Positions 5,773 through 7,233 of a DNA stretch of 7,527 nucleotides are shown here, piece by piece. The notes below the pieces were generated by a model. It was given only the letters and a program-made list of their open reading frames with translations. It was not told where the DNA came from and searched no databases. The translations under genes were made by a program, and so were the position numbers. The DNA is from a virus (taxonomy: Duplodnaviria > Heunggongvirae > Uroviricota > Caudoviricetes): IMG/VR virus record IMGVR_UViG_2609460218_000012; one strand, written 5' to 3'. Position 1 is the first letter of the stretch, and each line of letters opens with the position of its first letter.

Positions 5773-7233
5773 TTAGGAGCGCCAAAAAAAACCTGAAAAC
5801 AATATAATAACAGGATAAATTTCAAGGCGACCAAGAATCATAGCTATGCACATTAAACATTTTGCAATGTCATTAAGCACTCCGAATGACGATGCAGTAG
5901 CCCCAAAACCTAATCCCATATTATTAATACATGCAGCCACTGTTGCAAATGATGTAAGAAAATCATATCCCATACCATTTAACACCAGTATAAAAAACAC
6001 CGTAAAGAGAGTATAAAGNAAAAAAGAAACTCCATACAGACCTCATTACACGATCTGTAACTATCTTCCCTCCTACATTTACACTCAACAACGCTCTGGG
6101 ATGAGAAAGCTGATTTATCTCGTGTTTGCTTTGTTTGAAAAGTATAAGAAATCGAAGTGACTTAATTCCACCACAAGTTGAACCTATACATCCCCCAAAG
6201 AAACTTGACAACAGCAAAAACACTATCGTGTGCGTGGGCCAACTTGCATAATCCTGCGTAGCTAAACCATTATCAGTGAGCATGGAGCTGGCAAGAAAAA
6301 ACGAATGAATAAAACTTCCATGCAAGTCATACATACCTATATGCCAGACCTGGAAAGAGGTAACAATGATCACCCCTAAGGCTATTAACAGAAAGAAACG
6401 AAGTTCAATATCTCTGATTAAAGGTTTTATCGTTTTCCTGCTAATAACAATATACCAAAGAGTGAAGTTGAAAGCCGATAGCAGGGAAAAAGAACCAGCC
6501 ACCAGCTCAACCAAATAGTTATTAAAATATCCGATACTCTCGCTATGAGTTGAGAAACCACCAAGCGAAACTGTGGAAATCCCGTGACAAATAGCATCAA
6601 ACAAAGGCATTCCTGCAAGTCTATAACAGACAATACAAGCAATACCTAATAAAGAATAAGTTATCCACAGTGTCCGTGACGTATCGGCCAAGCGGGGAGT
6701 GAGTTTGTCATCCTTAAATGGCCCCGGCATTTCTGACTGATAAAGCTTTGCACCACCAATACCCAATAATGGCAATACAGCAACCGCCAGAACAATAACT
6801 CCTAAACCACCTATAAAATTTAACTGTGACCGATAGTACAAATATGCCCGAGGTAATGAACTAACATCATCAATTACAGTTGCTCCTGTTGTTGTTATTC
6901 CAGAAACCCCTTCAAACAGAGCATCAATGAACGTTAAATTAAGTTCTGAGTCAATCCATAAAGGGAATGCACTAATAACAGAAAACAAAATCCAAAACAT
7001 TACAATTATAATAAACCCATCACNNGTACGTAATTGAATGCCAGATTTCTTAGTTGTATACCACGCTCCGCCACCAATGCNAAAAAAATATAACGAAAGT
7101 TATNAAAGAAAACGAACAGGCTTTTTTCTTTATAAAACAATGCTACAACCATTGGTGGCAACATTGAAAGACTATAGAGCCAAACCAGGAACCCACACAT
7201 ATGAGTAACAACTCTTACATGAGATGTATTCAT
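5773..7233 (-). CDS. trkG: TrkH/TrkG-family K+ uptake membrane protein (TrkG, Rac-prophage type); reading frame broken by ambiguous bases
   Basis: Three track ORFs (7006..7251, 5963..7000, 5773..6000) together give a TrkH-family protein: MNTSHVRVVTHMCGFLVW.., GITTTGATV, GGCIGSTCGGIKSLRFLILFKQ, and C-terminal ..NNMGLGFGATASSFGVL..GRLEIYPVIILFSGFFWRS. It matches my recollection of E. coli TrkG. True start is ATG 7233 (MNTSH); the track's 7251 start is a TTG. Frame changes occur at n positions 6019 and 7024/7025, in or next to homopolymer runs, so they are likely artefacts. Visibly AT-rich (about 35 to 40% GC in sampled stretches) against 45 to 55% in the terminase genes. Confidence 0.9.

What the first reader, a model, noticed from the sequence alone, without database searches (positions are those of the whole stretch)
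5773..7233. Low-GC trkG moron embedded between an IS element and the prophage packaging genes
The TrkH-family gene is much more AT-rich (about 35 to 40% GC in sampled 60 nt stretches) than the adjacent terminase genes (about 45 to 55%), and it has its own putative terminator. That fits a horizontally acquired moron carried by the prophage. From established knowledge, E. coli K-12 trkG lies in the defective Rac prophage. Here it sits next to an intact-looking terS/terL module, so this locus may represent a less decayed Rac-type prophage than the K-12 reference.
Basis: partly seen in the sequence, partly recalled or inferred. Interest (0 to 1): 0.45.

Follow-up and report, generated by a model that had tools for sequence, protein, structure and literature searches.

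The report
Known low-GC trkG in Rac prophage
This is the well-known foreign, AT-rich potassium-transporter gene trkG in its usual place in an E. coli Rac-type prophage; this copy keeps packaging genes that K-12 has lost, but two insertion sequences have damaged it, so the finding is real and ordinary.

Summary
Window 7233..5773 (minus strand) is trkG, at 37.9% GC (GC3 32.1%). The six neighbouring phage genes are 45.5–51.1% GC. A GC change point lies at ~5703, and trkG codon usage differs sharply from the phage genes. The three apparent frame breaks come from single N's inserted after T-runs; once they are removed, the protein is 100% identical to K-12 TrkG.

The "less decayed than K-12" idea is supported. 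K-12 has an ~11.6-kb deletion running from ParB/YnaK codon ~85 to ydaY. Here full-length ParB, a glycosyltransferase, a 69-aa gene, terS and terL are all intact. This state is common: at least 728 of 5,426 complete E. coli genomes have it, and 10 deposited phage records do too.

Three corrections:
- trkG is not next to terS; three genes lie between them.
- The terminator hairpin (5686–5663) lies in sequence shared with trkG-less relatives, so it is not trkG's own.
- This prophage copy is itself damaged. IS2 truncates the portal gene at 166/167, and ISSen4 sits 26 nt upstream of the trkG start codon, cutting off most of its native upstream region.

The parts
1..166 (-). Left end of IS2 (terminal repeat TAGACTGGCCCCCTGAATCTCC… read on the minus strand from 166 downward, plus the start of its first ORF). 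It is inserted into the portal gene.
   Evidence: Sequence read; matches annotated IS2/IS3-family transposase copies; homology with the uninterrupted prophage of strain 1943 starts at 167. Naming it the IS2 left inverted repeat rests on my recollection of the IS2 sequence together with the annotation under the hits.
167..1349 (-). Portal gene (DUF4055), the first 394 of 468 codons. IS2 displaces the 3' 225 nt. The N at 1193 is an inserted base-call artefact.
   Evidence: Pfam DUF4055, 153.8 bits; window 167 corresponds to L001 18001, and the CDS in strain 1943 is L001 17776..19182.
1352..2653 (-). Terminase large subunit, intact (433 aa).
   Evidence: Terminase_6N and Terminase_6C domains; identical to strain 1943; no internal stops.
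2634..3728 (-). Terminase small subunit, intact (364 aa). The N at 3470 substitutes for one base.
   Evidence: Terminase_2.
3732..3941 (-). 69-aa protein that resembles a C-terminal segment of small terminase subunits.
   Evidence: phrog_309, E = 1e-17; annotated as hypothetical in strain 1943.
3919..4851 (-). TET-associated-glycosyltransferase-like protein (310 aa), annotated 'GREB1-related' in some genomes.
   Evidence: PF20691, 121 bits; phrog_842, 348 bits; annotations.
4844..5635 (-). Full-length ParB/Srx-domain protein (263 aa). K-12 ynaK is its first ~85 codons; the K-12 deletion junction corresponds to window ~5382.
   Evidence: ParB_N; phrog_620; junction alignment; K-12 hits start at query position 183 of 5200–6100.
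5653..5686 (-). Intrinsic-terminator-like hairpin CCCCAGTAGCACTGGCTGCTGGGG followed by TGCGTTTTAT. It lies on the backbone side of the insert boundary.
   Evidence: homologous hairpin and T-run in trkG-less relatives, with paired changes in the outer stem as I read the alignment; absent from the E. albertii cassette.
5700..5772 (-). AT-rich 3' untranslated tail of the trkG insert. The 3' boundary of the insert is at about 5700–5710.
   Evidence: Homology with M8 and RM13745 breaks here; GC change point at 5703.
5773..7233 (-). trkG: 485 codons plus stop. Artefactual N insertions at 6019, 7081 and 7104; NN substitution at 7024–7025. One synonymous difference from strain 1943 at 6691.
7234..7259 (-). 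The 26 nt that remain of the native 137-nt Rz–trkG spacer. It includes a TATAAT box at 7256–7251.
   Evidence: Alignments with K-12 and strain 1943.
7260..7527 (-). Right end of ISSen4 (IS3 family): C-terminal part of the transposase (stop at 7291–7289) and the terminal repeat ending …GGGGGCAGGTCA at 7260. It is transcribed toward trkG.
   Evidence: 100% identity over 268 nt to annotated ISSen4 copies; the end was defined against the EC20 copy.

Best explanation
The region is trkG, the prophage-borne paralogue of the core K+ transporter gene trkH. It occupies its usual slot in a Rac-type lambdoid prophage of E. coli, between the lysis cassette (Rz) and the ParB/glycosyltransferase/terminase block. 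It is cargo of foreign origin: an AT-rich insert of about 1.67 kb, made of a 137-nt upstream spacer, a 1458-nt coding sequence and about 70 nt of tail. The insert begins right after the Rz stop codon and ends just before a terminator hairpin that belongs to the shared phage backbone.

The encoded protein is identical to K-12 TrkG. From the literature on that identical protein, it works with TrkA as a Na+-dependent K+ (and Na+) uptake channel and is partly repressed by H-NS/StpA.

Compared with K-12, this copy predates or escaped the ~11.6-kb deletion that fused ynaK to ydaY, so ParB, the glycosyltransferase, terS and terL are intact. It has decayed differently. IS2 interrupts the portal gene, so it very probably cannot make particles (inferred). 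ISSen4 has inserted 26 nt upstream of the trkG ATG. That insertion separates trkG from most of its native upstream region, so expression here would depend on the retained TATAAT box or on read-through from the IS (inferred, not shown).
For: Identity and family.
Composition and codon step.
Rac-type context and near-identity to strain 1943.
K-12 gene order and deletion junction.
Insert boundaries: the Rz side from the DLP12/Rac alignment; the ParB side from trkG-less relatives M8 and RM13745.
The cassette occurs with the same upstream spacer in a non-phage chromosomal site in E. albertii.
IS ends.
N's as artefacts.
Published function, 38% vs 53% GC, foreign origin and H-NS repression: PMC9898762.
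Deposited phage records with the same arrangement.
Against: The N's could hide real homopolymer-length changes, so intactness of trkG and of the portal 5' part is inferred, not proven.
The window ends inside both IS elements. It cannot show whether these are simple insertions with the rest of the prophage beyond them, or rearrangement or deletion endpoints.
No promoter was demonstrated. The only sigma-70-like match in the native spacer is a weak consensus hit at a rate expected by chance.
The donor lineage of trkG was not identified. The nearest non-Escherichia homologues (Buttiauxella 68%, Morganella 61–63%) are not AT-rich.
Confidence: 0.9

Rival explanations
1. trkG here is a decaying pseudogene: the three frame breaks seen in the raw window are real frameshifts in homopolymer runs.
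For: As given, the window yields three ORF fragments (5773–6000, 5963–7000, 7006–7251). Homopolymer runs are natural frameshift hot-spots.
Against: Every indel relative to two references is an N, not a called base. The same pattern occurs in the portal gene at 1193. Outside the N's there is one synonymous change in 7,093 nt. Three independent frameshifts with no other substitutions would be very unlikely.
Confidence: 0.06
2. The low GC of trkG reflects amino-acid composition only (a very hydrophobic membrane protein rich in Phe, Ile and Leu), not foreign origin.
For: GC1 of trkG (0.418) is well below that of the phage genes (0.51–0.64), which is partly driven by amino-acid content.
Against: The largest drop is at the synonymous third position (GC3 0.321 vs 0.43–0.55), and synonymous codon choice differs at p = 4e-8. 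The non-coding flanks of the insert are also AT-rich: 19% in the 26-nt remnant and 41.6% in the 3' spacer. The 68%-identical Buttiauxella homologue has ~51% GC. Core trkH is reported at 53% GC.
Confidence: 0.03
3. The segment between the two IS elements (trkG to portal) is a composite-transposon-like mobile unit rather than a piece of a resident prophage.
For: The window is bracketed by IS ends in the same orientation.
Against: The two elements are different insertion sequences (IS2 and ISSen4), each showing only one end to the segment. The internal 7.1 kb is collinear with, and 99.99% identical to, an ordinary Rac-type prophage. IS2 cuts through a gene, as a plain insertion would. No such unit recurs in 5,426 complete genomes.
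Confidence: 0.03

Closest known systems
E. coli K-12 trkG (b1363) in the cryptic Rac prophage
   Same: The protein is 100% identical. The downstream spacer and the retained 26 nt of upstream spacer are identical, and trkG sits in the same position after Rz and before ynaK/ParB. The ~38% GC and foreign origin are already described.
   Different: K-12 carries the ~11.6-kb ynaK–ydaY deletion; this copy does not, at least through the portal gene. This copy has ISSen4 26 nt upstream of the ATG and IS2 in the portal gene. There are four synonymous nucleotide differences.
Rac-type prophage of E. coli strain 1943 (NZ_CP023359) and deposited phages such as vB_EcoS-683R6 (ON470595) and Salmonella phage SPF_0923
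   Same: Window 167–7259 is collinear with these and differs from strain 1943 by one base plus the N's. The phage records carry the same trkG–ParB–glycosyltransferase–terS block at 99.4–99.8% identity.
   Different: Those copies lack both IS insertions. Strain 1943 has an uninterrupted portal gene and the full 137-nt Rz–trkG spacer.
TrkH (core E. coli/Salmonella K+ transporter; solved Vibrio TrkH structures 3PJZ and 4J9U)
   Same: Same Pfam and TIGR family with full-length alignment. Per the literature, both use the same partner TrkA.
   Different: Only ~41% identical to Salmonella TrkH. Scores 449.7 bits against the TrkH equivalog cut-off of 866. GC is 38% vs 53%, and TrkG shows Na+-dependent activity and Na+ uptake.
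Lambdoid-phage morons (e.g. lambda bor and lom, HK97-type morons, as defined by Hendrix and colleagues; from my own knowledge)
   Same: Extra cargo between conserved late genes, with deviating base composition, absent from related phages that use the same slot. Expressed from the lysogen according to K-12 literature.
   Different: A self-contained promoter–gene–terminator unit was not demonstrated. The terminator is shared backbone sequence, and the promoter is only inferred.
E. albertii NBRC 107761 trkG island
   Same: 93% identical protein, the same ~137-nt upstream spacer at ~90% identity with both TATAAT boxes, and a ~35-nt relic of the Rz 3' end.
   Different: It lies between copD/yebY and pphA/rsmF in a ~4.5-kb AT-rich island with no phage late genes. 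It lacks the hairpin terminator.

Membership tests
TrkH/TrkG family of K+ transporters (Pfam PF02386, TIGR00933) | Scores above the curated cut-off of the family models over the full length | tested here: met
   PF02386: 484.2 bits (cut-off 27), residues 40–483. TIGR00933: 415.4 bits (cut-off 331).
TrkH/TrkG family of K+ transporters (Pfam PF02386, TIGR00933) | Uninterrupted reading frame of ~485 codons | tested here: inconclusive
   Intact once the three inserted N's are removed. The true bases at the N positions are unknown, but the pattern points to base-calling artefacts.
TrkG specifically (as opposed to TrkH) | Identity to the experimentally studied K-12 TrkG, and failure of the TrkH equivalog model | tested here: met
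   485/485 identical to b1363. TrkH equivalog NF008020 gives 449.7 bits against a cut-off of 866. 41% identity to Salmonella TrkH.
TrkG specifically (as opposed to TrkH) | TrkA-dependent, Na+-stimulated K+ uptake | not testable with these tools
   Taken from PMC9898762 for the identical protein.
Phage moron | Base composition distinct from the surrounding phage genes | tested here: met
   37.9% vs 45.5–51.1% GC; GC3 0.321; change point at 5703; codon chi-square p = 4e-8 with clean controls.
Phage moron | Inserted between genes that are adjacent, or hold other cargo, in related phages | tested here: met
   M8 and RM13745 have lysis genes, small unrelated ORFs, then ParB–glycosyltransferase–terS, with no trkG. 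Homology breaks at ~5700–5710. On the Rz side, homology ends at the stop codon.
Phage moron | Own promoter | tested here: inconclusive
   One weak sigma-70-like match in the native spacer, at a rate expected by chance. The spacer is ~90% conserved in E. albertii. A K-12 upstream fragment drives a reporter according to PMC9898762. In this window ISSen4 removes all but 26 nt.
Phage moron | Own terminator | tested here: not met
   A hairpin and T-run exist, but they lie in sequence shared with trkG-less relatives and do not accompany the cassette in E. albertii.
Rac-type prophage | Collinearity and high identity with a prophage carrying Rac hallmark genes (kilR, sieB, racC, ydaE/F, stfR) | tested here: met
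   Window 167–7259 matches strain 1943 with one substitution. That prophage carries kilR, sieB, racC, ydaE, ydaF and stfR.
Rac-type prophage | Integration next to ttcA with intR/xisR | not testable with these tools
   Lies outside the 7.5-kb window.
Intact (inducible) prophage | Complete head-morphogenesis genes, including portal | tested here: not met
   The portal gene is cut by IS2 at 166/167, displacing its last 75 of 468 codons.

The most novel reading that the evidence does not exclude
The space between Rz and the ParB/terminase block of Rac-type phages may be a fixed cargo slot, closed by a conserved terminator. The trkG cassette (upstream spacer plus gene, still carrying ~35 nt of Rz) can leave this slot and settle in the chromosome, as in E. 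albertii. In the present strain, ISSen4 26 nt upstream of the ATG would be a further step of domestication: it uncouples trkG from its AT-rich, H-NS-targeted upstream region and puts it under IS read-through.
Probability: 0.25. Interest if true: 0.3.

Novelty: already known. Interest (0 to 1): 0.12.

Why it matters
It matters little beyond housekeeping. It confirms a textbook case of prophage-borne cargo. It also shows that K-12's Rac is a deleted derivative of a prophage type that is widespread in E. coli in fuller form.

The modest extras are:
- precise boundaries of the AT-rich trkG insert;
- the point that the downstream terminator is phage backbone, not cargo;
- the exact K-12 deletion junction;
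- a strain-specific ISSen4 insertion that could change trkG expression.

For annotation, the N's in this sequence create false frameshifts that would wrongly flag trkG and the portal gene as pseudogenes.

Tried and rejected
- Real frameshifts in trkG: rejected, because every indel is an N beside a homopolymer.
- ISSen4 extending to 7249: megablast matches overlapped the Rac homology by 11 nt. Direct comparison with the EC20 copy shows the IS ends at 7260, and the overlap was a chance AT-rich near-match.
- Composite transposon: rejected, because the two IS elements are different.
- Looking for trkG-less close relatives among sequenced phages: none found. They were found among E. coli genomes instead.
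- Donor of trkG: the species-representative scan gave only Buttiauxella and Morganella homologues at host-like GC, so there is no donor candidate. I ran no further search on this, because they carry no taxonomy.
- Schlösser et al. 1991 (PMC207911) is not held in the library, so its statements are cited only through PMC9898762.
- Rfam scan of the window: no hits.
- A hybrid promoter formed by the ISSen4 end and the retained TATAAT box: by eye, candidate -35 hexamers at 16–18-nt spacing match 2 of 6, and the scan reports no promoter there, so this is not supported.
- Literature probe for the ParB plus TAGT pairing: uninformative.
- Two sandbox scripts failed because fetched loci had not been copied across. 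The alignment and composition tools were used instead.

Full report
**What is in the window**

All genes run on the minus strand. From high to low coordinates they are:
- the right end of an IS3-family element (7527–7260);
- trkG (7233–5773);
- a ParB/Srx-domain gene (5635–4844);
- a TET-associated-glycosyltransferase-like gene (4851–3919);
- a 69-codon gene (3941–3732);
- terS (3728–2634);
- terL (2653–1352);
- the first 394 codons of a DUF4055 portal gene (1349–167);
- the left end of IS2 (166–1).

Family assignments come from Pfam, NCBIfam and PHROGs and from RefSeq annotation of matching genomes.

**The N's**

The window contains seven N's. Alignment with K-12 and with E. coli strain 1943 shows two classes. 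Four are inserted bases that follow homopolymer runs (1193, 6019, 7081, 7104). Three are substitutions (3470 and 7024–7025). These N's are the only reason ORF listing splits trkG into three pieces and the portal gene into two. Apart from them, window 167–7259 differs from strain 1943 by a single base, 6691, which is synonymous. I treat the frame breaks as base-calling artefacts. After repair every gene is open, and TrkG is 485/485 identical to K-12 TrkG.

**Checking the observation**

- GC content is 37.9% (GC3 32.1%) for trkG, against 45.5–51.1% for the six phage genes.
- In 100-nt windows the means are 0.379 and 0.482 (Mann-Whitney p = 1.3e-6).
- A single-change-point fit puts the step at 5703.
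- Synonymous codon usage of trkG differs from the pooled phage genes (chi-square 109.4, df 41, p = 4e-8). Each phage gene is homogeneous with the others (p = 0.37–0.84).
- The step is strongest at third codon positions and also shows in the non-coding flanks, so it is not just a result of a hydrophobic protein.
- A terminator-like hairpin with a T-run lies at 5686–5663, 87 nt after the stop codon.

**What it is**

The protein passes the TrkH-family models but scores below the TrkH equivalog cut-off (449.7 vs 866 bits). It is ~41% identical to Salmonella TrkH. Its nearest solved structures are the Vibrio TrkH entries. This matches the known paralogue TrkG.

The surrounding DNA is a Rac-type prophage. 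In strain 1943 the same block continues into head and tail genes on one side. On the other side it continues into lysis genes, hokD, sieB, kilR, ydaE and racC.

**Boundaries of the foreign insert**

- Lysis side: Rac Rz and DLP12 RzpD are alignable up to the Rz stop codon and unrelated after it.
- Packaging side: two E. coli prophages (strains M8 and RM13745) have the same ParB–glycosyltransferase–small gene–terS block behind a different lysis cassette. They carry small unrelated ORFs instead of trkG.
- Their homology with the window covers ParB, its upstream region and the hairpin plus T-run. It breaks at about 5700–5710, which coincides with the GC change point.
- As I read the alignment, the outer stem of the hairpin shows paired changes between relatives.

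The insert is therefore about 1.67 kb: a 137-nt spacer, 1458 nt of coding sequence and ~70 nt of tail. The terminator belongs to the shared backbone at the edge of a variable cargo slot, not to trkG.

A diverged allele (93% protein identity) in E. albertii supports this. There the gene lies between copD/yebY and pphA/rsmF in an AT-rich island without phage late genes. It keeps the whole upstream spacer at ~90% identity and ~35 nt of the Rz 3' end. It loses homology ~25 nt after the stop codon and has no hairpin.

**Comparison with K-12**

K-12 Rac reads rzpR/rzoR–trkG–ynaK–ydaY–ynaA. The junction alignment shows K-12 following ParB to codon ~85 (…GATGAGCAGAA, window ~5382). It then continues with sequence that in strain 1943 lies at the start of ydaY, between the tail tube and tape-measure genes. 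By my coordinate arithmetic the deletion is ~11.6 kb. It removes, by my count, 15 whole genes from the glycosyltransferase to the tail tube gene, plus the 3' two-thirds of ParB.

So the window does represent a less deleted state. It is a common one:
- 728 of 5,426 complete E. coli genomes hold at least 80% of the whole window;
- 1,037 genomes cover at least 80% of the query spanning the ParB–trkG junction;
- ten deposited phage records carry the same block.

**Decay specific to this copy**

- Window 1–166 is the IS2 left end. Homology to the intact prophage starts at 167, which is 225 nt before the end of the portal gene.
- Window 7260–7527 is 100% identical to ISSen4. It ends at …GGGGGCAGGTCA, 26 nt upstream of the trkG ATG.
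- The ISSen4 transposase gene points toward trkG, with no terminator-like site in between.
- The only sigma-70-like match in the native spacer lies ~118 nt upstream of the ATG and is displaced by the IS. It is a weak hit at a chance-level rate. A TATAAT box at 7256–7251 is retained.
- Neither IS junction occurs in any of the 5,426 complete genomes: the best matches stop at 7259, and none covers 1–7259 in one piece.
- Because the window ends inside both IS elements, simple insertion cannot be told apart from rearrangement.

**How it most likely works**

Shown here:
- an intact-looking trkG identical to the K-12 protein;
- foreign composition;
- a defined cargo slot;
- a backbone terminator downstream.

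From the literature on the identical protein (PMC9898762):
- TrkG mediates Na+-dependent K+ uptake and some Na+ uptake, using TrkA.
- Its GC is 38%, against 53% for trkH.
- It is regarded as phage-transduced foreign DNA.
- H-NS and StpA lower its transcription but do not silence it.

Inferred:
- In a lysogen the gene is transcribed from its own upstream spacer and stops at the backbone hairpin.
- During lytic growth, antiterminated late transcription would read through it.
- In this strain the ISSen4 insertion probably changes trkG expression, in an unknown direction.
- The IS2 insertion probably prevents particle formation.

**Novelty**

The core finding is already known. The incremental points are the insert boundaries, the backbone assignment of the terminator, the K-12 junction, the E. 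albertii chromosomal copy with an Rz relic, and the strain-specific IS insertions. They are small.

**Leads that went nowhere**

- The donor of trkG remains unidentified. Buttiauxella (68%) and Morganella (61–63%) homologues have host-like GC.
- No trkG-less close relative exists among deposited phages.
- Rfam found nothing.
- The 1991 trkG paper was not available.
- The ParB/TAGT literature probe was uninformative.

Noticed in passing
window 3732-5635 (minus strand): A full-length ParB/Srx-domain gene overlaps by 8 nt a TET-associated-glycosyltransferase-like gene (PF20691; phrog_842 'beta-glucosyl-HMC-alpha-glucosyltransferase', 348 bits). A 69-aa terS-fragment-like gene follows, directly upstream of terS. 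The trio is conserved in trkG-less relatives (L005, L006). It may be a DNA-modification module of Rac-type phages; K-12 ynaK is only its 5' stump.
   Followed up: partly
window 1193, 3470, 6019, 7024-7025, 7081, 7104: There are seven N's. The four that act as insertions all follow homopolymer runs and create false frameshifts in trkG and the portal gene. An automatic annotator would call both genes pseudogenes.
   Followed up: yes
window 1-166 and 167-1349: The IS2 left end interrupts the DUF4055 portal gene 225 nt before its end. This junction is not found in any of 5,426 complete E. coli genomes.
   Followed up: partly
window 7234-7291: ISSen4 ends 26 nt upstream of the trkG ATG. Its transposase reads toward trkG and no terminator lies between them. 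Only a TATAAT box (7256-7251) of the native 137-nt spacer remains. This junction is also unique among the complete genomes searched.
   Followed up: partly
L010 (E. albertii NBRC 107761) 4500-9000: A 93%-identical trkG allele lies in a ~4.5-kb AT-rich island between copD/yebY and a truncated pphA/rsmF, with no phage late genes nearby. It retains ~35 nt of the Rz 3' end and the whole upstream spacer. A 208-aa ORF (8417-9043) in the island matches no NCBIfam model.
   Followed up: partly
L005 1-1103 and L006 1-1101: In the trkG-less relatives, RefSeq annotates the gene after terL, in the portal position, as 'anti-CBASS protein Acb1 family protein'. This looks like a questionable automatic name for a portal-position gene.
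   Followed up: no
window 5723-5748 (minus strand): A second small hairpin (GUGAGU…ACUCAC) lies about 25 nt after the trkG stop codon, inside the AT-rich insert. It has no T-run. Homology with the E. albertii cassette ends around here.
   Followed up: no
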